From Rhodospirillaceae bacterium (GTDB lineage Bacteria > Pseudomonadota > Alphaproteobacteria > UBA6615), in NCBI GenBank assembly GCA_018702955.1, contig JABJEK010000097.1:7631-71630 (forward strand): 64,000 bases of DNA. The letters are read 5' to 3'. Position numbers and translations under genes: made by a program. Shown here piece after piece: positions 1,136 through 57,709 of the stretch; the stretch's first letter is position 1; every line of letters starts with the position of its first letter. Under the pieces are notes generated by a model. The model made no database searches. It saw only the letters and a list, made by a program, of their open reading frames with translations, and was not told the origin of the DNA.

Positions 1136-1765
1136 TCAGGTGGCGTAGCTGCGATCTCCGGCATCACCCAGACCGGGAACGATGTAGCCCTTCTCGTTTA
1201 GCTGCGCGTCGACAGATCCGACAAAGACCGGAACGTCCGGGTGCGCTTCAGACAACGCCGCCAGCCCTTCCGGCGCGGCGAGAATGGAGATCAGACACAT
1301 GTCCGAAACACCGCGCGCCTTGAGCTGAGAGATCGCGGCGATCGATGAATTGGCCGTTGCGAGCATGGGGTCGACAAGCAGAAGCGAACGGTCCGCGATG
1401 TCCGCCGGGCCGTTGAAGTAATACTCAACCGCCTCCAGCGTGTCGTGATCCCGGTAGATTCCGATATGGCAGACGCCGGCGGTCGGTATGATTTCCAACG
1501 CCGCATCCAGCATCACGTTTCCGGCCCGCATGATCGACACCAGAACAGGACCCGGTGCAGCCAGGACCGGCGCACTCATCTTTGTCAGGGGCGTTTCGAT
1601 TTCCCGCTCCGTCAGCGTCAGATCACGCGTTGCCTCAAACAACATGAGCTGGGCGATCTCGCGGACCAGCAGGCGAAAAATAATCGGTGGCGTTTCCTTG
1701 TCACGCAGCAACGAAATCTTGTGCTGCAGCAGCGGGTGACCGATCACGGTTGCACTGGACGTCAT
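1136..1765 (-). CDS. upp: uracil phosphoribosyltransferase
   Basis: Uracil phosphoribosyltransferase signatures: LRDKETPP...FRLLVREIAQLMLFEAT and YIVPGLGDAGDR near the C-terminus. Internal ATG (MTSSATVIGHP) gives 209 aa. The upstream extension of the ORF is GC-rich read-through. Confidence 0.85.
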   Translation of the reverse strand: MTSSATVIGHPLLQHKISLLRDKETPPIIFRLLVREIAQLMLFEATRDLTLTEREIETPLTKMSAPVLAAPGPVLVSIMRAGNVMLDAALEIIPTAGVCHIGIYRDHDTLEAVEYYFNGPADIADRSLLLVDPMLATANSSIAAISQLKARGVSDMCLISILAAPEGLAALSEAHPDVPVFVGSVDAQLNEKGYIVPGLGDAGDRSYAT

Positions 1766-1911
1766 GGTATTTCTCTCTACTGGCCTTCGGCAAACAGATT
1801 TAGCCCGACCCGGCACCAGAAGGCGAGAGGCCGGTTTGCAACCCCGGTTGCGGAGGCGAGATCGGCTCTGCCATTGTTCGTGTGCACACAGGTGATCTTG
1901 CACAAAAAACG

Positions 1912-9179: not shown

Positions 9180-9878
9180 TCACATACCGCCCGTGATCTG
9201 CAAGGCATTCGGTAGCACGGTGACATTGTCTTCCACCTCTTGCACACCGGCGATTCCCTCTGCGGCCACACGTACAGCCGTTTTCTCCGACTCCGTCAGA
9301 ACGCCGCCCCAAAGCTGGACTTTGCCGTCGCGCACGACATAGCTGACGAAGTTCCCGACGCTCGGTAAATCCTGCGCCAGCGCGCCCGCGAGACTTTCAC
9401 GAATCTGGCGGTCACCGAGATGCTGCTCACCCGGCGCCTTAAGCGCGGCCAATCCCTGCAGCAGATTGGCACGGCTGACAATGCCAACAACCTTGCCATC
9501 GCGAACAACCGGCACGCGCTTGATTCTGTGCGTCTCAAGGAGTTCCGCCACCTGCGAAACCGGCATGTCTTCCGGGATGGTGACGACCTTTCGGGTCATC
9601 ACATCGCGCGCGTGGTGACCATGGGACAACACGAACTCGCGCGCCCTCTCTGCCGGGCCGGTAATCATGTGCAACCACCACGAAGGCCTGCGTTCGGTGT
9701 CATTTTCCGTCCGCCGCATAAGATCGCCCTCACTGACGATCCCCTGAAGAACACCATTATCATCGACAACCGGCACAGCACTGATGTGGCGCCGCAAAAA
9801 TATTCGCGCGACATCCTCCACGCTGGTTTCCGGCGTAACTGTCGCCACATCTGGGGTCATGACATCAACCGCTTGCAT
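9180..9878 (-). CDS. CBS-pair plus BON domain protein
   Basis: Two CBS motifs (VMTPDVATV...AVPVVDDNG; VMTRKVVTI...RVPVVRDGK) and a C-terminal BON-like segment. The ATG at 9878 has a GGAGG RBS. The track start at 9890 lacks one. Confidence 0.7.
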   Translation of the reverse strand: MQAVDVMTPDVATVTPETSVEDVARIFLRRHISAVPVVDDNGVLQGIVSEGDLMRRTENDTERRPSWWLHMITGPAERAREFVLSHGHHARDVMTRKVVTIPEDMPVSQVAELLETHRIKRVPVVRDGKVVGIVSRANLLQGLAALKAPGEQHLGDRQIRESLAGALAQDLPSVGNFVSYVVRDGKVQLWGGVLTESEKTAVRVAAEGIAGVQEVEDNVTVLPNALQITGGM

Positions 9879-10074
9879 GCTTGCCTCCATCTTCGTCTGG
9901 TGAGAAGTGCATCATCACCCCTTTACAGGTTTTCGATATTGCGTTGAATCAACCCGGCACATACTGCGGTCGATCACCACCAGCCCGGTTTCGATAGTTT
10001 CTTTCATCACCTCGGCTCCCGCCGATGTATGATGAACACAGCCGAATCCGCCCCAGCCCTTCTTTTCCGGACAT

Positions 10075-11349
10075 ATGCAGAGCGAAACGCCTCCCGCGCC
10101 CTATAGCCGCCGCGCCGCGATCATCCGGATGGCCCCCATTTTGGGACTGACGTTCATCCTGGCGCATTTCCTGCGCTCCGCGCCGGCGGTCATCGCGCCG
10201 AATCTGCGCACGGAACTCGGGCTGACCCCGGGTGAACTCTCGAGCCTGCCGGCCGCGATTTTCCTGGGTGCAGCGCTCATGCAGCTCCCCGTCGGCGTCT
10301 TCCTCGACCGATTCGGACCCCGGCGCACCATGGCCGCGCTGTTTTCTCTGGCCGCGCTCGGCGCCATTGTATTCGCGGTCGCACAGGGCGTGGTCGTACT
10401 GGCCGTCGGGCTGTTCCTGATCGGTTGTGGCGCGGCTCCGGTGTTTATGGGCGTGATCGTCCTACTGTCGCGCTGGATCGCCCGCGACCGGCTCGCCACG
10501 GGCACAGCCATCTCGATTTCGGTCGGCGGTGCGGGGATGCTTTTGTCCGCCTCACCGTTTGCCGCCGCCGTGGAGCTCTATGGCTGGCGCGCGAGTTTGC
10601 TGGTCGTGGGGGTATTCTCATTCGCGGTGGCCGCTGCCCTGCTGGTGATGGTGCGCGACAGGCCGGAAGACGCACCCCACCCGGCCAGCACCGAGACCCT
10701 GCTCGAGACAATCTTCGGCGTTCGCCATGTCTTACGCGATACGCGCATCTATTCCTTCGCCGCCGTCACCGCCGTGTCCGTGGGGGCGTTGGTGACCATC
10801 CGCAACCTCTGGATCGGGCCCTATCTGAACGATGTGTTCGACCTCGACCTCATCGCACGCGGCAACGTGATCTTCGTGGTGTCCCTGACCTGGATCATCG
10901 CCGCGGTGCTCTACGGACCGCTCGACCGCAAGTTTGATACAAGGCGCGGCGTCGTGACCTGCGGCATGCTGGCCTTCACGGCCATGACGGGGGCGTTGGC
11001 GATCAACAGCAGCAACTCCGTGCTGGTCGTCACGATACTGCTCTCGGGCTTCGCGCTGTTCGCGCCGATGGCGTCACCCATCTTCGCCCATGCCCGCAGC
11101 CTGTTCCCGGACACGCACTCAGGGCGCGTGTTCACCGCCATCAACGTCTGCACCTGGTCAGGCGTGTTCCTAATGCAGATGGGGACCGGCGCCATCCTCG
11201 ACGCCTTCCCGGTCGACGAACTGGGCCGCAGCCCGGCGATCGCCTATCGCACCATGTTCGGGGTGCTGGTGATCGCCTTGCTGCTGGCCCTGATGATCTA
11301 CCGCCGGGTCGAGGACGTTCGGCCGTCGACCGAGCGGGATCATCCGTAG
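10075..11349 (+). CDS. MFS transporter
   Basis: About 12 predicted hydrophobic helices. Major facilitator superfamily (MFS)-like loop GVFLDRFGPRRT between TM2 and TM3. Confidence 0.75.
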   Translation: MQSETPPAPYSRRAAIIRMAPILGLTFILAHFLRSAPAVIAPNLRTELGLTPGELSSLPAAIFLGAALMQLPVGVFLDRFGPRRTMAALFSLAALGAIVFAVAQGVVVLAVGLFLIGCGAAPVFMGVIVLLSRWIARDRLATGTAISISVGGAGMLLSASPFAAAVELYGWRASLLVVGVFSFAVAAALLVMVRDRPEDAPHPASTETLLETIFGVRHVLRDTRIYSFAAVTAVSVGALVTIRNLWIGPYLNDVFDLDLIARGNVIFVVSLTWIIAAVLYGPLDRKFDTRRGVVTCGMLAFTAMTGALAINSSNSVLVVTILLSGFALFAPMASPIFAHARSLFPDTHSGRVFTAINVCTWSGVFLMQMGTGAILDAFPVDELGRSPAIAYRTMFGVLVIALLLALMIYRRVEDVRPSTERDHP

Positions 11350-16072: not shown

Positions 16073-16480
16073 CTAGTTTCGCGTGGCCGTCGACCTCGGA
16101 AGCGGCGGCAGGACGATTCGGACGCGACTTGGATAGCGATGGATGAAACCGGTACCAGCGTCGCGTACAAGGCCGACGATACCACCGGCGAGAATATTGC
16201 CAAGCAGCAGAGGCTCCAACCCCGAATGCAAGGTCCCGGTGGTGGTCTCGTGCCCCGCCAGCTTGCATTCAACTTCGATGTCGCCCCAATCACGCGTCGC
16301 CACGAAGGTCAGCGGTGTGCCGCCGACCAGGCGTGTTCGCACACCATCGCGCTCGAGCGTGCATGCCGCACCCGGCGGCTCGGTGATCACCGTGACGATG
16401 TGACTCCGCTCGCTCACATAGCCAGCGCAGGCCGCCAGAAACAACAGTGAAAAGATTGCGGAAAATCGAAACATCGTCAT
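16073..16480 (-). CDS. small lipoprotein
   Basis: Signal peptide with lipobox LFLAAC|AG. 135 aa. No recognisable family. Confidence 0.55.
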   Translation of the reverse strand: MTMFRFSAIFSLLFLAACAGYVSERSHIVTVITEPPGAACTLERDGVRTRLVGGTPLTFVATRDWGDIEVECKLAGHETTTGTLHSGLEPLLLGNILAGGIVGLVRDAGTGFIHRYPSRVRIVLPPLPRSTATRN

Positions 16481-30658: not shown

Positions 30659-30697
30659 CGCAGGCGGTTGGCGAAGCGAAACCGGGCGACCAGCACC

Positions 30698-31546
30698 CTA
30701 ATCGTTTTTCTCAACTGCCCCAGCGACGGCGAGAATGTGCTGCGCCGCCACGACCACCGGGTTATCGATCATTTCACCGTCGACGGTCGCGATGCCACCC
30801 TTGGCAGCCTCCGATGCGGCGACGATCCGCCGCGCACGCGCAACCTCTTCTTCGCTCGGTGCAAAAACGGCGTGAATCACGCTCACCTGGCGCGGATGGA
30901 TCGCGATCTTTCCATCAAATCCCATGCTGCGGACAAGTTCGGTATCCCCGCGCAGACCGTCATCATCCTTGAAATCCGGCCAGATACCGTCGATCGCCGC
31001 AATGCCGGCCTGCCCGGCCGCCGCGGCAATCCGGCCACGCCCATAGGCCAGAGCAGCGACGCTCATGTCGCTCCCCAACTCGGCCGCATAATCGGCGGAC
31101 CCGAACCCCACCGCGACATTGCGAAGAACCGAACCGGCTATCTCCGCAACGCGATCCAGGCCTTCCGCCGATTCAACAACGGGTATCAGGTCGATGTCCT
31201 TGTCAGCAGACGACAACAAACCATCGAGCCAGCGCATCTCTTCGCCGCTCGACGCCTTGGGGATAAACAATGCGTCCGGCGCAGCCTCGCTTGACAGAAG
31301 GGCAAGTAAATCATGCAGGCCCAACTCTGTGCGCGGGCTGTTGATGCGCAAAACCCAGCGCGGACCGGCCGGCAGCGATCCCGCGAGATATTCCAGCGCC
31401 GTGGCGCGGGCCGCCGCCTTGTCGTCCAGCGCAACCGCATCCTCGAGATCGATACAAACCATATCGGCGCCCGCAGCTGCGGCCTTCTCGAATCGGTCGG
31501 GGCGGGTCGCAGGAACAAACAACAAGCTTCGCCAGAGGGTACTCAT
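30698..31546 (-). CDS. HpcH/HpaI aldolase / citrate-lyase beta (CitE) family protein
   Basis: N-terminus RSLLFVPATRPDRFEKA. Central Asp/Glu metal-site regions. AAGGA RBS before the ATG at 31546. Confidence 0.75.
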   Translation of the reverse strand: MSTLWRSLLFVPATRPDRFEKAAAAGADMVCIDLEDAVALDDKAAARATALEYLAGSLPAGPRWVLRINSPRTELGLHDLLALLSSEAAPDALFIPKASSGEEMRWLDGLLSSADKDIDLIPVVESAEGLDRVAEIAGSVLRNVAVGFGSADYAAELGSDMSVAALAYGRGRIAAAAGQAGIAAIDGIWPDFKDDDGLRGDTELVRSMGFDGKIAIHPRQVSVIHAVFAPSEEEVARARRIVAASEAAKGGIATVDGEMIDNPVVVAAQHILAVAGAVEKND

Positions 31547-53889: not shown

Positions 53890-54420
53890 ATGACCACGTC
53901 AGACGAGGCGGCCTCCTCCAGTACCGGGGAGGCCGCCTCCGAGCTGCGCACCGTCGACATCAAGTTTGATGCCAGGGCCCGCACCCTCGGAAAGATGAAA
54001 AGCGAGGTGACCATCACCTCGCAATTCTCCAACTTCTCGGTCACGCTGGAGACCGACGAGGGCAAGCTTCACGGCGGCGATGCCTCCGCACCCATGCCGC
54101 TGCACTATTTCGCGGCCGGCGTCGTAACCTGCCTGATGACCCAGATGAAGGCCTTCGCCAAGCGCCTGCGCATCCCGGTCGAGAACATCGAGATGAACGC
54201 CAACTTTCACTGGCGCCTCGAACAGCAGGGGCGCGAGCCCTATGTCTCGCAACCCGTGGGCTTTGACATCGATATCGATGTGGACAGCGATGCGCCGCTG
54301 GAAGACCTGAAGCGCCTGATCGAGGCTGCCAAGAAGGGATGCTTCGCCGAGCAGGCACTCACCCTGCCCTGCGCGATCGGCCACCGCCTGAAGGTCGGCG
54401 AAGACTGGGTCGACGTCTAG
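53890..54420 (+). CDS. OsmC/Ohr family protein
   Basis: 176 aa. Conserved Cys pair (VTCLMTQ...; GCFAEQ) of OsmC-like peroxiredoxins. Confidence 0.7.
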   Translation: MTTSDEAASSSTGEAASELRTVDIKFDARARTLGKMKSEVTITSQFSNFSVTLETDEGKLHGGDASAPMPLHYFAAGVVTCLMTQMKAFAKRLRIPVENIEMNANFHWRLEQQGREPYVSQPVGFDIDIDVDSDAPLEDLKRLIEAAKKGCFAEQALTLPCAIGHRLKVGEDWVDV

Positions 54421-55670
54421 TTTCGCCTGGCGACCACCTGATCGGCAATCAGCCGGTGGACTCCCAACGATTCGCAACGGCGGTCGTTGATCCTGCCAGA
54501 TTCCCATTTCGCGAATTGAACAACGACCACCCCCTGTTCCGGAAAAATGTGAAGAAACTGGCCGCCGGACCCCCAACCCGTGAATCCGTCGTTCGGGTCC
54601 TCGAACACCCACCACTGGAACCCGTAGCGATACTGGAGATCAAAGTCGCGGAAATCGCATCCGCGGCCCGTATCGCGATTGTCGTTCACCGACAGGCGCA
54701 GCCAGTTACCCATGAAGCCACGGTCCGCTTTGTACAGGTCCAGGATATGTGCACCGATCAGAGCCATGTCTCCGGCTGACATCCGGAAACAGCAATGGGA
54801 CGGAGACCGGTATTGATAGTCCGCCTTCCAGCGAGCGCGCTTGCGCGGGCCCAGCGCGCGCCAGAAATAATGGTCGAACCCCCGCGTCAGGTTCGGCGCC
54901 TCGTGATCAGGCAAGATGTCCATGAACTCGGGAATCTGTGACAAACGTTCTTCAGCAAGGATACCGAGCAACTGGCTGTCGAGCCCCGAGTAGTTGAATG
55001 GTCGTCGTTCGCCTGAACCGGGATCGAATTCCACATCTTTCAAAATCTCAGCTGTTACCCCGCGCAGCGTGCAATCGGAACCCTGCGGGTCGCGATTGCA
55101 GTCATCACTCTCCAGCACCTTGACCCTTGGTTTATCACGTTCATCATCCCACTCCATCGCGCTCGACATCTGAAGCAAGTCACGCACGGTGACCGCACGA
55201 TCGGGATACACAATCTCCGTAGGCAATAGGTCGATCAGACGGGATGAAATATCCAGTGGCACGCCAAGCGCCGGATCCATAAAAATGCGCCCGAAGAGCA
55301 GTGACGTGATCGACTTTGTGGTGGAGGCGAGACCATAGAGTTCATCTTCCACACCGCGCTGGCACCGACCCGCGCCATGCATGGGGCGCTCTGCATGGAA
55401 GTAGGGTGCCGCGCGATCAACGACAAAAAGCGCGCACACCGCATTGCGCTCGAGAAACTGTTCCAGATCGCAACGCCCCCCAAAGAGGCCGCACCTGTAG
55501 TCCACGTCGAGCGATTTGACGGGACGTGGCGTCGCACCGGCGTCCGTGGGTTCAAGCCAGTTTCGGTGCTTCCAATCCCGGGTTTCGTCAGCCAAAGCAC
55601 CTTCAGGTAGAGCCCCAGACATGACCGCGATCAGGGACAGGAGGAGGAGACACCTCAGAGCTAACGACAT
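54417..55670 (-). CDS. secreted cysteine-rich beta-lactamase-fold serine hydrolase
   Basis: Signal peptide MSLALRCLLLLSLIAVMSGALP. SxxK nucleophile motif GLASTTKSITS. 10 Cys residues in the mature chain. AAGAAGG RBS. Confidence 0.7.
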   Translation of the reverse strand: MSLALRCLLLLSLIAVMSGALPEGALADETRDWKHRNWLEPTDAGATPRPVKSLDVDYRCGLFGGRCDLEQFLERNAVCALFVVDRAAPYFHAERPMHGAGRCQRGVEDELYGLASTTKSITSLLFGRIFMDPALGVPLDISSRLIDLLPTEIVYPDRAVTVRDLLQMSSAMEWDDERDKPRVKVLESDDCNRDPQGSDCTLRGVTAEILKDVEFDPGSGERRPFNYSGLDSQLLGILAEERLSQIPEFMDILPDHEAPNLTRGFDHYFWRALGPRKRARWKADYQYRSPSHCCFRMSAGDMALIGAHILDLYKADRGFMGNWLRLSVNDNRDTGRGCDFRDFDLQYRYGFQWWVFEDPNDGFTGWGSGGQFLHIFPEQGVVVVQFAKWESGRINDRRCESLGVHRLIADQVVARRN

Positions 55671-55698
55671 GTGGAACGCCTTCTTAATCAACCCTGCG

Positions 55699-56844
55699 TT
55701 AGTGCCTTGCATGCACAAACATAGCGAACCCTAGCGCAACCGCGCTCAGCGCGGCCATGGCATAGAATGCACCGCCGGTGAAACTGCTGTAGAGCGCGCC
55801 GGACGCGATCAGCGCCAGCCCCATGATGATCCCCGATATGGAGGCGTAGGCGCCCTGCGCGGTCGCCTTCAGGCCTTCAGGCGCGTTCCCGGCGATGTAA
55901 TGCATCGTCGCCAGGTAGGTCGCACCGAAGGTGATGGCATGCATCGCCTGGGCCACGATCAGCCCCGGTAGAGCGACCGTCTCGGCCAGAATCAGCCAGC
56001 GCACCAAAGCCGTGCCCGCGCCCAGCAGGAGCAGCCGGGAGGCGCCAAGCCGCGCCACCACTGCACCGCTGAAGGCGAACAGGACGATCTCGACGACGAC
56101 GCTGCCGCCCCAGAGCAGCCCGACCATGAGTTCCGAATGCCCTGCCGCCTTCCAGTGGATGCCGGAGAACCCGTTGAGCACGGCATGGCTCGCCTGCACC
56201 GCACTGGCCGCCAGCACGAAGGCGAGGAAACGCCGGTTGCGGACAAACGCCAGCACATCCGTCCAGCGCGCATGGCCGCGCGCCTCGTTCTGCTCGCGCA
56301 GAAAAACCGTCGTCACCAGCACCGCGACGAGGCCGAAAAATATGACGAGCAGGATCAGATCCGGGTCACGCCCGGTCAGCAGCGCCCCCACCCCCAGAGT
56401 ACCCAGGATAAACGTCACCGAGCCCCACAACCGGATGCGGCCATAGTCCAGCCCGTGGCGGAGCACCGCCGACATGGCCTGGGAATCGCCGAGCGGAATG
56501 AGCGCATGATAACTCGGCGCATAGACGAGGGTGATCAGCAGGATCAGCCAGAAGGACGAGACCAGGGAGAAGCCGGAGAAGGCAATCAGGCTGACGGCCG
56601 CGGTGATGACCAGCATGCGGCGGCCCTGCCCCCCATGGTCGGCCGCGCGGGCGATCACCGGATCCACCAGCACCCGCATCCAGGGACCAACCGCAAGGAT
56701 GATGCCGATATCGCCCGGCGTCAGCCCACGGCTCTGCAGCCAGATCGGCCAGAACGGCACCACCACGCCCAGCACAAAGAAGACCGCGCCATAGAACATG
56801 GCGAAGCGGAGCGAGGTGCGGAACGGGGTCTCAGTCACGGCCAT
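55699..56844 (-). CDS. MFS transporter (HcaT / MFS_1_like type)
   Basis: 12 hydrophobic helices. N-terminus TPFRTSLRFAMFYGAVF resembles phenylpropionate/nucleoside-type MFS permeases. Confidence 0.7.
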   Translation of the reverse strand: MAVTETPFRTSLRFAMFYGAVFFVLGVVVPFWPIWLQSRGLTPGDIGIILAVGPWMRVLVDPVIARAADHGGQGRRMLVITAAVSLIAFSGFSLVSSFWLILLITLVYAPSYHALIPLGDSQAMSAVLRHGLDYGRIRLWGSVTFILGTLGVGALLTGRDPDLILLVIFFGLVAVLVTTVFLREQNEARGHARWTDVLAFVRNRRFLAFVLAASAVQASHAVLNGFSGIHWKAAGHSELMVGLLWGGSVVVEIVLFAFSGAVVARLGASRLLLLGAGTALVRWLILAETVALPGLIVAQAMHAITFGATYLATMHYIAGNAPEGLKATAQGAYASISGIIMGLALIASGALYSSFTGGAFYAMAALSAVALGFAMFVHARH

Positions 56845-56862
56845 TATGTTTGGGACTGCCCA

Positions 56863-56902
56863 TAAAAAACGCCGGCCGCCCACATGGTGTGAACGGCCGG
56901 CG
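56863..56902 (-). terminator. rho-independent terminator downstream of the deiodinase-like gene
   Basis: On the minus strand: cgccggccg-(15 nt)-cggccggcg, followed by TTTTTT. Confidence 0.7.
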
Positions 56903-56938
56903 CGTGATCTGTTTTACCGCAGAAGCGTAGGACGCTGC

Positions 56939-57709
56939 CTATTCGGCGGCTTCCTGTCGGCTGGCAATTTCTTCCTTCGACAGCGGCTGGTTCCGGAACC
57001 GGCCATGCTTCTCGTAATACGCATCGACCTGCACATGCTTGGCGACGGTCAGCGGTGCGGCCTTGAAGAAGTCATAGAGCGCAACAACGCCACCGGTCCA
57101 CATCGTCCGCATCATGTGCGGCATCGAACGCGTGGCCCGAAGTTCGGCGGTCGGTGCATTCTCGACCTTGTGATAGCTCTCGCGATCCTCAAGCGCCGCC
57201 TCGATCAGATGCGGGGCCGCCCAGTTGCAGCGATAGTGGATCGTGCCATCGGGGCGAATGATGTAGACGACGTTCGGCATGGCGCCATAGGCGCGATGGA
57301 AATCGCCGTCGAGACTGTCGACCAGCACCCGACGGAATTCCTTGTAGCGTGGCGCGACCAGTTCGGCGGACTTGAACTTGTCATCCATGTTCTGGTGCGG
57401 ACCCATGCGCTCACCCGGATGGGCCTCGCGGACATAGACCATGACAAAGTTCACGTCGGAGAACTTCTCGACGATGTCCCGGTAGATCTTGATGTTCTTC
57501 GTATACATCGAACAGGTCGACGAACCGGTCTCGATGACGGTCCACTGACCGTCGAAATCCGACAGTTTGACCTCTTCGCGCGTCGCAAGGTCGGTGAATG
57601 TGGCGTCGATATATTTGTCGCCCGCCTGCGGGCCGACAAAGGTGTCGAAGTTGTAATCCACAACGCGGAAACGTTTGTTGTTGTAAACAGGCTTCGGTGC
57701 ATCAGACAT
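56939..57709 (-). CDS. iodothyronine-deiodinase-like thioredoxin-fold protein (Cys variant)
   Basis: ETGSSTCSMY aligns with the deiodinase active site NFGS(C/A)TUPPF, with Cys in place of selenocysteine. FVMVYVREAHPGE aligns with the deiodinase FLLVYIDEAHPSDGW. AGAGGGGG RBS. Confidence 0.65.
   Translation of the reverse strand: MSDAPKPVYNNKRFRVVDYNFDTFVGPQAGDKYIDATFTDLATREEVKLSDFDGQWTVIETGSSTCSMYTKNIKIYRDIVEKFSDVNFVMVYVREAHPGERMGPHQNMDDKFKSAELVAPRYKEFRRVLVDSLDGDFHRAYGAMPNVVYIIRPDGTIHYRCNWAAPHLIEAALEDRESYHKVENAPTAELRATRSMPHMMRTMWTGGVVALYDFFKAAPLTVAKHVQVDAYYEKHGRFRNQPLSKEEIASRQEAAE

What the first reader, a model, noticed from the sequence alone, without database searches (positions are those of the whole stretch)
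54417..55670. Secreted, unusually cysteine-rich beta-lactamase-fold hydrolase in an apparently AT-shifted gene
The protein has a Sec signal peptide and the SxxK serine-nucleophile motif (STTK) of PF00144-type beta-lactamase/esterase/penicillin-binding proteins. It also carries 10 Cys in the mature chain (CGLFGGRC, DDCNRDPQGSDC, HCC, RGCDF, RRC...), which is atypical for this family and suggests multiple disulfides. By eye the gene is less GC-rich than its neighbours, hinting at horizontal acquisition. It lies between an OsmC peroxiredoxin and an MFS permease.
Basis: partly seen in the sequence, partly recalled or inferred. Interest (0 to 1): 0.5.

Follow-up and report, generated by a model that had tools for sequence, protein, structure and literature searches.

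The report
Disulfide-rich periplasmic NylB/PIB-1-like serine hydrolase
This gene encodes an exported serine hydrolase of the beta-lactamase fold from a small, unstudied bacterial subfamily whose eight invariant cysteines include an adjacent Cys-Cys pair at the back of the active-site pocket, which makes it a modestly unusual variant of a well-known enzyme type.

Summary
Window 54417-55670 (-) encodes a 417-aa PF00144 protein with a signal peptide, S116-T-T-K119 and 10 cysteines in the mature chain. Its GC3 is 0.67 against a window mean of 0.78 (z -2.2), and its codon-usage fit is the worst of 47 genes.

The cysteines are a family trait. Eight are conserved in every full-length relative, and many relatives have exactly eight. 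A ninth and tenth (C191, C200) come and go together.

C293-C294 aligns with Ser283-Gly284 of PIB-1, at the back of its pocket. In the wider clade this dipeptide is CC (about 125 proteins) or GG (14), and almost never a single Cys. In 32 exported relatives CC is the only cysteine pair, so a vicinal disulfide is likely. I could not test any pairing, because no model coordinates were available.

Recent horizontal transfer is not supported. The deiodinase-like / HcaT-like MFS / hydrolase arrangement is syntenic in three lineages. The hydrolase is nevertheless the fastest-diverging gene of the block and has low GC3 in all three. That fits an old acquisition, a replacement, or fast evolution.

The substrate is unknown.

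The parts
54417..55670 (-). Coding sequence of the hydrolase (417 aa plus stop). An alternative TTG start at 55691 gives the 424-aa database version.
   Evidence: PF00144 at 45.7 bits. AF2 model pLDDT 89.8, pTM 0.88.
55679..55685 (-). Shine-Dalgarno-like AAGAAGG, 8 nt upstream of the ATG at 55670.
   Evidence: Read directly from the sequence. The orthologue in L001 has GAGTGAGG in the same place.
55590..55670 (-). Signal peptide, residues 1-27 (MSLALRCLLLLSLIAVMSGALPEGALA|DE). It looks Sec-type: one Arg, no twin-arginine motif and no lipobox.
   Evidence: Hydrophobic core with KD 2.69. The model has low pLDDT over residues 15-26. The feature is conserved in relatives. No Pfam TAT_signal hit. 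The cleavage site is inferred from the -3/-1 rule.
55362..55493 (-). N-terminal cysteine module: C60, C67, C79 and C103. I infer two disulfides; the pairing is unresolved.
   Evidence: All four are present in every full-length member of the subfamily. The fourth position drifts between 99 and 103. P0066 lacks all four but keeps the C-terminal four, so the modules are independent.
55314..55325 (-). Motif 1: S116-T-T-K119, the nucleophile Ser and the general-base Lys.
   Evidence: Invariant in alignment A1 and in 150+ relatives. Aligns to PIB-1 Ser131/Lys134 and NylB Ser112/Lys115.
55071..55100 (-). Clade-specific loop C191...C200 (DDCNRDPQGSDC). I infer a fifth disulfide here.
   Evidence: Both Cys are present together only in the window protein, P0002, P0003, P0007, P0010 and P0021, and both are absent elsewhere.
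54984..54992 (-). Motif 2: Y227-S228-G229. The catalytic Tyr is present; the motif is not the class C YxN.
   Evidence: Y227, S228 and D231 are invariant. Aligns to PIB-1 Y230-S-T (bioRxiv 10.1101/2024.03.05.583521).
54789..54794 (-). Vicinal cysteine pair C293-C294, preceded by H292. It is predicted to line the back of the substrate pocket and is probably a vicinal disulfide.
   Evidence: Invariant in the subfamily. Aligns to PIB-1 Ser283-Gly284 and NylB Gly267-Gly268, and H292 aligns to NylB His266. In the wider clade the dipeptide is CC 125, GG 14 and single-Cys 4. It is the only Cys pair in 32 exported relatives. The oxidation state was not testable.
54657..54659 (-). C338, in the hairpin E332-340/E343-349 (the loop equivalent to R2). 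Its inferred partner is C399.
   Evidence: Relatives carry Cys at 338 or at 345. These are cross-strand partners in the predicted hairpin, and C399 is always present with them. C338 aligns 3 residues before the PIB-1 pocket residue Tyr334.
54570..54578 (-). Motif 3: G365-W366-G367, in place of KTG.
   Evidence: G367 is invariant. Aligns to PIB-1 A366-Q367-G368 (bioRxiv 10.1101/2024.03.05.583521).
54474..54476 (-). C399 (followed by invariant E400) in the C-terminal helix. Its inferred partner is C338.
   Evidence: Invariant. Aligns within the PIB-1 acidic stretch that supplies pocket residues Glu394, Asp396 and Glu399.
55699..56844 (-). HcaT-like MFS permease immediately upstream. It is probably co-transcribed with the hydrolase: the spacer is 28 nt.
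   Evidence: PF12832 at 192 bits. NF008346, the 3-phenylpropionate MFS transporter model, scores 244 bits against a cut-off of 259. In L001 the gap is 17 nt, and in L004 the two genes overlap by 4 nt.
56859..56903 (-). GC-rich hairpin (16 pairs) plus a T-run, between the deiodinase-like gene and the MFS start.
   Evidence: Identical in L001, and present with a different stem sequence in L004. Its role as a terminator or attenuator is inferred.
53890..54420 (+). Convergent OsmC-like gene. Its stop codon overlaps the hydrolase stop codon by 4 bp. I do not infer that it belongs to the same system.
   Evidence: The gene is absent from the syntenic locus L004.

Best explanation
The gene encodes a Sec-exported, periplasmic acyl-serine hydrolase (esterase or amidase) of the NylB/PIB-1/Lsa45 branch of the PF00144 beta-lactamase fold.

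Shown: catalysis would use the Ser116/Lys119/Tyr227 triad. The third motif is G-W-G, of the PIB-1 type, not KTG.

Shown: the protein belongs to a small, uncharacterised subfamily found mainly in alphaproteobacterial MAGs. The subfamily is defined by eight invariant cysteines.

Inferred: these cysteines form four disulfides in two independent modules. The N-terminal module is C60, C67, C79 and C103. The C-terminal module is C293, C294, C338 and C399. The window's clade adds a fifth disulfide, C191-C200.

Inferred: the most likely C-terminal pairing is a vicinal C293-C294 disulfide lining the back of the substrate pocket, plus a C338-C399 staple. That staple would tie the R2-like hairpin to the C-terminal helix, both of which form pocket walls in PIB-1.

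Inferred, and weaker: the gene is the second cistron of a two-gene unit with an HcaT-like MFS permease. The enzyme therefore probably releases a carboxylic acid, possibly aromatic, in the periplasm, and the permease imports it for the surrounding catabolic genes.

Shown: the gene has sat in the same chromosomal slot since before three related lineages diverged. It is nevertheless the fastest-diverging and lowest-GC3 gene of the block.

Inferred: this reflects an old acquisition or replacement, and/or rapid evolution with weak codon adaptation. It does not reflect a recent transfer.
For: Fold and clade:
- PF00144 scores above its cut-off.
- The AF2 model has pLDDT 89.8.
- The subfamily profile hits 4gb7, PIB-1 and NylB at E 1e-24 to 1e-26.
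- S116, K119, Y227, S228, D231 and G367 are invariant.

Export: signal peptides are present across the subfamily.

Cysteines:
- The eight-Cys core is present in all full-length members, and 21 of 47 representative clusters have exactly 8 Cys.
- Other NylB/PIB-1-like hits have a median of 2 Cys.
- The 293-294 dipeptide is CC in 124-125 proteins, GG in 14 and a single Cys in 4.
- 32 exported relatives have CC as their only Cys.
- The loop Cys sits at 338 or at its cross-strand partner 345, always with C399.
- C191 and C200 co-occur.
- CC aligns to PIB-1 Ser283-Gly284. The PIB-1 structure paper describes Ser283 as forming the back of the pocket.

Operon: the spacer is 28 nt here and 17 nt in L001, and the genes overlap by 4 nt in L004. 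A conserved hairpin lies upstream of the MFS gene. The MFS resembles HcaT.

History:
- Synteny holds in L001/L002 and in L004-L006.
- Against L004, flanking proteins are 52-90% identical (most 75-90%, SDR 52%), the MFS 57% and the hydrolase 35-42%.
- Against L001, dS is 1.16, the highest of 16 genes, and dN/dS is 0.11, indicating purifying selection.
- GC3 is low in all three orthologues: 0.67, 0.66 and 0.70.
Against: - No coordinates of the model were available, so no S-S distance was measured. All pairings rest on comparative patterns.
- The CC/GG association is not corrected for phylogeny.
- PIB-1 is reported to be metal-dependent, and several subfamily members carry RR in the signal n-region. 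A metal-binding role for some cysteines is therefore not excluded.
- The MFS linkage exists only in the window's own clade. Other family members sit in unrelated contexts without an MFS. The substrate inference is therefore weak.
- No substrate information exists for any member.
- The NJ grouping of the window protein with P0010/P0007 has only 69% bootstrap support. Orthology across the syntenic slot is likely but not certain.
Confidence: 0.6

Rival explanations
1. It is an ordinary chromosomal class C (AmpC-type) beta-lactamase, or a PIB-1-type carbapenemase, whose job is antibiotic resistance. On this view the cysteines are incidental.
For: PF00144 hit and SxxK motif. The closest characterised structure by Foldseek is PIB-1, which hydrolyses carbapenems.
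Against: - The YxN and KTG motifs are absent; the protein has Y-S-G and G-W-G.
- No NCBIfam beta-lactamase model is hit.
- Identity to PIB-1 is only 18-20%.
- The cysteines are invariant across the subfamily, so they are not incidental.
- The gene is paired with an importer-type MFS inside a catabolic neighbourhood.
Confidence: 0.1
2. The conserved cysteines, especially C293, C294, C338 and C399 around the pocket, bind a metal ion or cluster. Alternatively the vicinal pair stays reduced as a functional dithiol. Either way they would not be structural disulfides.
For: - All four map to pocket-forming elements.
- PIB-1 activity is described as metal-dependent (title).
- Some family members have RR in the signal n-region, which could indicate Tat export of a pre-folded, cofactor-bearing protein.
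Against: - The window protein and its orthologue have no RR motif.
- No member hits Pfam TAT_signal.
- The Cys count is even, and exactly 8 in many members.
- CC occurs alone in 32 exported relatives, where two adjacent thiols cannot make a four-ligand site.
- CC is replaced by GG, not by His or Asp ligands.
- The Zn sites described for PIB-1 are intermolecular Asp/His contacts, not pocket residues.
Confidence: 0.12
3. The gene is a recent horizontal acquisition, and this explains its AT-shifted composition.
For: - The GC dip is the size of the gene: 0.57-0.60 against 0.62-0.67 in the flanks.
- GC3 z is -2.2 and the codon-usage fit is the worst in the window.
- The family is rare and patchy: 8 loci among 185,579 species representatives.
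- Family members sit in unrelated contexts.
- One member is a sharp AT-rich island: L009, GC 0.465 against 0.613.
Against: - The gene is in the same position, flanked by the same genes, in three lineages whose flanking proteins differ by up to 25%.
- All three copies have low GC3.
- There are no tRNA genes in the window, and no integrase or IS element was seen beside the gene.
- dN/dS of 0.11 indicates long-term purifying selection in place.
Confidence: 0.1
4. It is a low-molecular-weight penicillin-binding protein or DD-peptidase that remodels peptidoglycan or another envelope polymer (AmpH, Lsa45 or EstG type). On this view it has no link to the MFS gene.
For: The protein is periplasmic and has the same fold. 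Lsa45 and EstG are among the structural neighbours.
Against: - The family is very rare and is not a housekeeping gene.
- It is closest to NylB-type amidases.
- It is tightly spaced behind the MFS gene in three lineages.
- Its divergence is much faster than expected for an envelope-maintenance enzyme.
Confidence: 0.1

Closest known systems
PIB-1 (PA5542) of Pseudomonas aeruginosa, PDB 8rlj
   Same: - It also has an N-terminal extension before SxxK.
- Its motif 2 is Y-S-x rather than YxN, and its motif 3 is x-x-G (AQG against GWG) rather than KTG.
- The pocket is built from the same elements: the strand after Ser283, the R2 loop and the acidic C-terminal stretch.
   Different: - Identity is only 18-20%.
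- At the site of the vicinal pair PIB-1 has Ser-Gly, and its structure paper mentions no cysteines or disulfides.
- PIB-1 is a metal-dependent carbapenemase. No such activity is shown here.
6-aminohexanoate-dimer hydrolase NylB (PDB 1wyb, 2zm2 and others) and the Bacillus anthracis NylB-like protein 4gb7
   Different: - NylB has Gly267-Gly268 and 4gb7 has Ala-Gly where this protein has Cys-Cys.
- Neither carries the vicinal Cys pair at this site; their full cysteine content was not checked.
- NylB is, from my own knowledge, a cytoplasmic plasmid-borne nylon-oligomer amidase.
- Identity is 17-19%.
Lsa45 of Leptospira interrogans (PDB 8dc1) and Caulobacter EstG (7u1b/7u1c)
   Different: Identity is low (15-19%). 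I did not inspect the CC-equivalent position in either protein. Neither is reported to be cysteine-rich.
Ambler class C beta-lactamases (AmpC)
   Same: PF00144 fold, the SxxK nucleophile motif and the catalytic Tyr.
Proteins with functional vicinal disulfides (nicotinic acetylcholine receptor alpha C192-C193, methanol dehydrogenase C103-C104). This comparison is from my own knowledge.
   Same: Adjacent, strictly co-conserved cysteines sit at a ligand-binding site.
   Different: The folds are unrelated, and the oxidised state is not demonstrated here. This is an analogy, not a membership claim.

Membership tests
PF00144 beta-lactamase / transpeptidase-like serine hydrolases | Match to the family HMM above the curated cut-off | tested here: met
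   45.7 bits against a cut-off of 27, E 6e-12. All 24 members of A1 match.
PF00144 beta-lactamase / transpeptidase-like serine hydrolases | S-x-x-K nucleophile motif at the N-terminus of a helix | tested here: met
   S116-T-T-K119 is invariant. The model has a helix at H117-131.
PF00144 beta-lactamase / transpeptidase-like serine hydrolases | The two-domain beta-lactamase fold | tested here: met
   [not shown]
PF00144 beta-lactamase / transpeptidase-like serine hydrolases | Acyl-enzyme hydrolytic activity | not testable with these tools
   Requires an enzyme assay.
Ambler class C beta-lactamase | Y-x-N second motif | tested here: not met
   The motif is Y227-S228-G229. The third position varies in the family (G, N, D, A or S).
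Ambler class C beta-lactamase | K-T/S-G third motif | tested here: not met
   G365-W366-G367. Relatives have G/A-I/L/V-G.
Ambler class C beta-lactamase | Match to a curated beta-lactamase model (NCBIfam) | tested here: not met
   No beta-lactamase family was hit at E of 0.1 or below.
NylB / PIB-1 / Lsa45-like branch of PF00144 | Closer in sequence profile and in fold to these than to other PF00144 groups | tested here: met
   [not shown]
NylB / PIB-1 / Lsa45-like branch of PF00144 | PIB-1-type non-canonical motifs (Y-S-x and x-x-G) and an N-terminal extension | tested here: met
   Alignments, and the motif description in bioRxiv 10.1101/2024.03.05.583521.
NylB / PIB-1 / Lsa45-like branch of PF00144 | Nylon-oligomer or carbapenem hydrolysis | not testable with these tools
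   Requires an assay. The NylB specificity residues (Asp181, Asn266) were not systematically compared.
Family VIII carboxylesterases | W-x-G in place of KTG (from my own knowledge of the family) | tested here: not met
   The aligned triplet is G-W-G here and G/A-I-G in relatives. Trp is at the second position and only in the window clade.
Eight-cysteine subfamily (defined here) | Cys at 60, 67, 79, about 99-103, 293, 294, 338 or 345, and 399 | tested here: met
   All eight are present in the window protein. The same set occurs in 47 of 135 full-length representative clusters.
Vicinal-disulfide-containing proteins | Two adjacent, co-conserved cysteines | tested here: met
   C293-C294. CC 124, single Cys 4, neither 34.
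Vicinal-disulfide-containing proteins | An S-S bond between the adjacent residues | not testable with these tools
   No model coordinates were available, and the bond would need a crystal structure or mass spectrometry in any case.
Sec-exported periplasmic proteins | N-terminal n-h-c signal peptide with an A-x-A cleavage site and no twin-arginine motif | tested here: met
   Sequence inspection and hydropathy. No TAT_signal hit. No dedicated predictor was available.

The most novel reading that the evidence does not exclude
The invariant Cys293-Cys294 pair forms a strained vicinal disulfide that is part of the substrate-binding surface at the back of the acyl pocket. It would act as a rigid stacking platform or as a redox-sensitive gate. 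This would hold not only for the eight-cysteine subfamily but for a large, uncharacterised clade of exported PIB-1/NylB-like hydrolases in which CC is the only cysteine pair. That would be a new, recurrent active-site element in the beta-lactamase fold. It would also suggest that the activity of these periplasmic enzymes, possibly including PIB-1-like carbapenemase homologues, depends on the Dsb system or on periplasmic redox state.
Probability: 0.3. Interest if true: 0.65.

Novelty: new variant of a known kind. Interest (0 to 1): 0.45.

Why it matters
PF00144 enzymes are studied as resistance determinants, as biocatalysts (family VIII esterases, nylon hydrolases) and as envelope enzymes.

- None of the related solved structures whose alignments I inspected (4gb7, PIB-1, NylB) has a Cys-Cys pair at this site, and I found no paper on one in this fold. 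The first experimental look at such a pocket would be new.
- A conserved disulfide scaffold would make the subfamily a natural example of pocket stapling, which is useful for enzyme engineering.
- A vicinal disulfide at the pocket would link the activity of a broad clade, including close PIB-1 homologues, to oxidative folding. DsbA is already discussed as a route to disabling beta-lactamases.
- The locus is also a clean case of a single gene, with its partner transporter, diverging several-fold faster than a conserved syntenic block.

Tried and rejected
- Disulfide pairing from the AlphaFold model: the model is confident, but no coordinates are exposed. I could measure no distances, so the pairings rest on comparative patterns only.
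- AFDB fold search: the library was not available.
- NCBIfam naming of the hydrolase: only sub-threshold noise, such as the 3-succinylated cholic acid synthase model at 17 bits against a cut-off of 800.
- Tat export: RR motifs occur in some relatives, but no member hits Pfam TAT_signal and the window protein has no RR. I rejected Tat export for this protein.
- Conserved gene context as a clue to function: context is conserved only within the window's own clade. It is unrelated in L007-L009 and L011-L018, so I gave it low weight.
- 'Low GC3 is a family-wide trait': rejected. L008, L013, L016 and L017 are not deviant, and L007, L014 and L015 only weakly so.
- Mobile-element signatures: there are no tRNA genes in the window, and no integrase or IS element was seen next to the gene.
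- Positive selection: dN/dS is 0.11-0.27, so there is no gene-wide signal. I did not run site models.
- Literature: no paper in the library combines PF00144 with disulfide, or vicinal disulfide with this fold.
Full report
**1. The observation**

The ORF at window 54417-55670 (-) encodes 417 aa. A Shine-Dalgarno-like AAGAAGG lies 8 nt upstream of the ATG at 55670. The identical database protein (P0001, a Rhodospirillaceae MAG, 'serine hydrolase', 424 aa) starts 7 codons earlier, at TTG 55691. Either start gives a signal peptide.

- PF00144 scores 45.7 bits against a cut-off of 27. STTK is at residues 116-119.
- There are 11 Cys: one in the signal peptide and ten in the mature chain, at 60, 67, 79, 103, 191, 200, 293, 294, 338 and 399.
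- This is the highest Cys fraction of the 51 genes I called in the window: 2.6% against 1.03% pooled.
- Gene GC is 0.583 against 0.628 for the window.
- GC3 is 0.667 against 0.859 for the OsmC-like neighbour and 0.833 for the MFS neighbour.
- Among 47 genes of at least 150 aa, z(GC3) is -2.2. The fit to the window's own codon usage is the lowest (z -2.6).
- GC1 and GC2 are normal, so the shift is synonymous.
- A handful of other genes have GC3 of 0.68-0.71, so this gene is an outlier but not a singular one.

**2. What kind of enzyme it is**

It is not a canonical class C beta-lactamase. The second motif is Y227-S-G rather than YxN, and the third is G365-W-G367 rather than KTG. No NCBIfam beta-lactamase model is hit.

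An AlphaFold2 model built on 24 homologues is confident (pLDDT 89.8, pTM 0.88).

- Foldseek puts PIB-1 first at E 1e-17.
- A profile of the subfamily hits 4gb7, PIB-1 and NylB at E 1e-23 to 1e-26. R61-type peptidases score only 1e-5.

The PIB-1 structure paper (bioRxiv 10.1101/2024.03.05.583521) describes the same departures from AmpC: SxxK is kept, the second motif is YST instead of YxN, the third is AQG instead of KTG, and there is a long N-terminal extension. The window protein therefore belongs to the NylB/PIB-1/Lsa45 branch. Identity to any solved member is only 17-20%.

**3. The cysteines are a family signature**

The indexed search found only 28 homologues. One is identical, one is 81% identical (P0002), and the rest are 43% or lower.

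In the alignment of 24 (A1), S116, K119, Y227, S228, D231, W281, D284, C293, C294, G367, C399, E400 and H405 are invariant. Every full-length sequence has Cys at 60, 67, 79, 103, 293, 294 and 399. Every one except P0024 also has Cys at 338; P0024 carries the loop Cys at 345. Many have exactly eight Cys in total.

C191 and C200 occur together in the window protein, P0002, P0003, P0007, P0010 and P0021, and are both absent elsewhere. That is the pattern expected of a disulfide pair.

The exhaustive profile search of 1.84 billion cluster representatives gave 12,032 hits at E of 1e-3 or below, and 138 at 1e-30 or below. I aligned the 170 sequences held to the profile.

- 47 of 135 full-length representatives carry the eight-Cys core. 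Their Cys counts have median 9 and minimum 8.
- The remaining NylB/PIB-1-like hits have a median of 2 Cys.
- The fourth Cys drifts between positions 99 and 103.
- The seventh Cys is at 338 or at 345. In the model these are cross-strand partners of the hairpin E332-340/E343-349, so both occupy the same spot.
- One member (P0066) keeps the C-terminal four while lacking the N-terminal four. The two sets are therefore independent modules.

An even, invariant set of Cys with no extras in an exported protein is best read as four disulfides. The window clade would have five.

**4. The vicinal pair**

Across the aligned hits the dipeptide at 293-294 is CC in 124-125 proteins and GG in 14. It contains a single Cys in only 4. 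Fisher's test gives p = 2e-30, not corrected for phylogeny.

In 32 full-length relatives CC is the only cysteine pair beyond the N-terminal 35 residues. Nearly all of these have an N-terminal signal peptide or membrane anchor. The pair is therefore an old, self-sufficient unit. The 338/345 and 399 cysteines were added later as a second pair.

That favours two bonds: a vicinal C293-C294 disulfide and a C338-C399 disulfide. The alternative pairing, 293-338 with 294-399, is not excluded.

P0141 is a CC-only protein and a close PIB-1 homologue (E 7e-58). In its alignment CC falls on PIB-1 Ser283-Gly284. The paper lists Ser283 among the residues forming the back of the substrate pocket.

In NylB the pair aligns with Gly267-Gly268, and H292 aligns with His266. 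From my own knowledge, His266 is the position of the activity-enhancing H266N substitution.

C338 aligns three residues before PIB-1 Tyr334, at the pocket floor. C399 aligns inside the acidic stretch that supplies Glu394, Asp396 and Glu399, on the pocket side. All four C-terminal cysteines therefore sit on pocket-forming elements.

The three solved structures whose alignments were shown have AG, SG or GG at this site (4gb7, PIB-1, NylB). I found no paper linking a vicinal disulfide with this fold.

I could not measure distances, because model coordinates are not exposed.

**5. Export**

The window protein has a Sec-like signal peptide: one Arg, a hydrophobic core, then ALA|DE.

The 81% orthologue was mis-called as starting inside its signal peptide. 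The upstream ATG restores MPSILKFLRFFSLIAVAMGALFDNVSA|DE.

Most relatives have comparable N-termini. Some carry RR in the n-region, but no member hits Pfam TAT_signal.

**6. Context and transcription**

The upstream gene is an MFS permease resembling the 3-phenylpropionate transporter HcaT. NF008346 scores 244 bits against an equivalog cut-off of 259, and PF12832 scores 192 bits.

The spacer between the MFS stop and the hydrolase ATG is 28 nt here and 17 nt in L001. In L004 the two genes overlap by 4 nt.

A 16-bp GC hairpin with a T-run lies between the preceding deiodinase-like gene and the MFS start. It is identical in L001. In L004 it is present with a different stem sequence. MFS and hydrolase therefore look like a two-gene unit.

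The wider block encodes the following:
- amidohydrolase_2 enzymes,
- a CocE/NonD hydrolase,
- a family III CoA-transferase,
- a glyoxalase/VOC protein,
- dienelactone hydrolase,
- a molybdenum hydroxylase,
- an SDR,
- an acyl-CoA dehydrogenase.

This makes periplasmic release of a carboxylic acid, followed by import, a reasonable guess.

It remains a guess. Family members outside this clade sit in unrelated contexts with no MFS.

**7. History of the gene**

The arrangement is deiodinase-like, MFS, hydrolase, then OsmC and S15 peptidase on the opposite strand. It is syntenic in two MAGs carrying P0002 (L001, L002). Without OsmC, it is also syntenic in the lineage carrying P0010 (L004-L006).

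| Comparison | Flanking proteins | MFS | Hydrolase | OsmC |
|---|---|---|---|---|
| Window vs L001 | 85-98% identical | 92% | 79-81% | 76% |
| Window vs L004 | 52-90% identical (most 75-90%) | 57% | 35-42% | absent |

- dN/dS for the hydrolase is 0.11 against L001 and 0.27 against L004, so the gene is under purifying selection.
- Its dS against L001 is 1.16. That is the highest of 16 genes, whose median is about 0.5.
- GC3 is low in all three orthologues: 0.67, 0.66 and 0.70.
- In an NJ tree the window protein and P0002 group with P0010 and P0007 at 69% bootstrap. The distance of about 1.0 is as large as the distance to members from other orders.

The family is rare. Only 8 loci were found among 185,579 species representatives, all of them alphaproteobacterial MAGs. 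One member is a sharp AT-rich island: L009, GC 0.465 against 0.613.

Taken together, the family does move horizontally, but in this lineage the gene is not a recent arrival. Three readings remain open, and I cannot separate them:
- an old acquisition that is still incompletely ameliorated;
- a like-for-like replacement of the MFS-hydrolase cassette;
- rapid evolution of a weakly codon-adapted gene.

**8. Verdict**

The interpretation needs three corrections:
- The enzyme belongs to the NylB/PIB-1 branch, not class C.
- The acquisition was ancient, or the gene evolves fast; it was not a recent transfer.
- The key feature is a conserved disulfide scaffold, including a probable vicinal disulfide at the pocket. 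The wider clade shares the vicinal pair.

This is a new variant of a known kind of enzyme. It is of moderate interest, mainly to structural enzymologists. The substrate is unknown.

Noticed in passing
window 54417-54420: The stop codons of the hydrolase (-) and the convergent OsmC-like gene (+) overlap by 4 bp, which leaves no room for a terminator between them. L001 has the same arrangement (11200-11203).
   Followed up: partly
window 56859-56903 (-): A 16-bp GC-rich hairpin with a T-run lies only about 15 nt upstream of the MFS start codon (ATG at 56844). It is identical in L001, and present with a different stem sequence in L004. It could terminate the deiodinase-like gene or attenuate the MFS-hydrolase leader. 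There is no room for a promoter downstream of it.
   Followed up: partly
window 56939-57709 (-) and 53890-54420 (+): Two thiol/selenol-type redox proteins flank the MFS-hydrolase pair. One is a deiodinase-family, thioredoxin-fold protein with Cys (GSSTCSMY) at the position where, from my own knowledge, animal deiodinases carry selenocysteine. The other is an OsmC-like protein that hits NCBIfam 'OsmC-related (seleno)protein' at 117 bits against a cut-off of 95.
   Followed up: no
window 53890-56844, compared with L004 6859-9527: MFS, hydrolase and OsmC behave as a variable cassette inside a conserved block. In L004 OsmC is missing, the MFS is 57% identical and the hydrolase 35-42%, while most flanking genes are 75-90% identical.
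   Followed up: partly
L009 7750-8950: The family member in this unrelated alphaproteobacterial contig is a gene-sized AT-rich island (GC 0.45-0.50 against 0.58-0.62). Its ORF extends upstream of the database call and includes the N-terminal Cys module. No clear signal peptide is visible.
   Followed up: partly
proteins P0008, P0015-P0018 and P0020 (family members): The signal-peptide n-regions contain RR motifs (SRRFRFS, HRRKFFL, TRRFSLS) that resemble twin-arginine signals. No Pfam TAT_signal hit was obtained.
   Followed up: partly
L001 9950-10000: The public gene call for the 81% orthologue (P0002, 400 aa) starts inside the signal peptide. An upstream ATG at 9950, preceded by GAGTGAGG, restores a 417-aa precursor.
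   Followed up: yes
window 1136-1903, 9180-9890, 16073-16480 and 30668-31294: These genes have GC3 of 0.68-0.71 and poor codon-usage fit, comparable to the hydrolase. I did not examine them.
   Followed up: no
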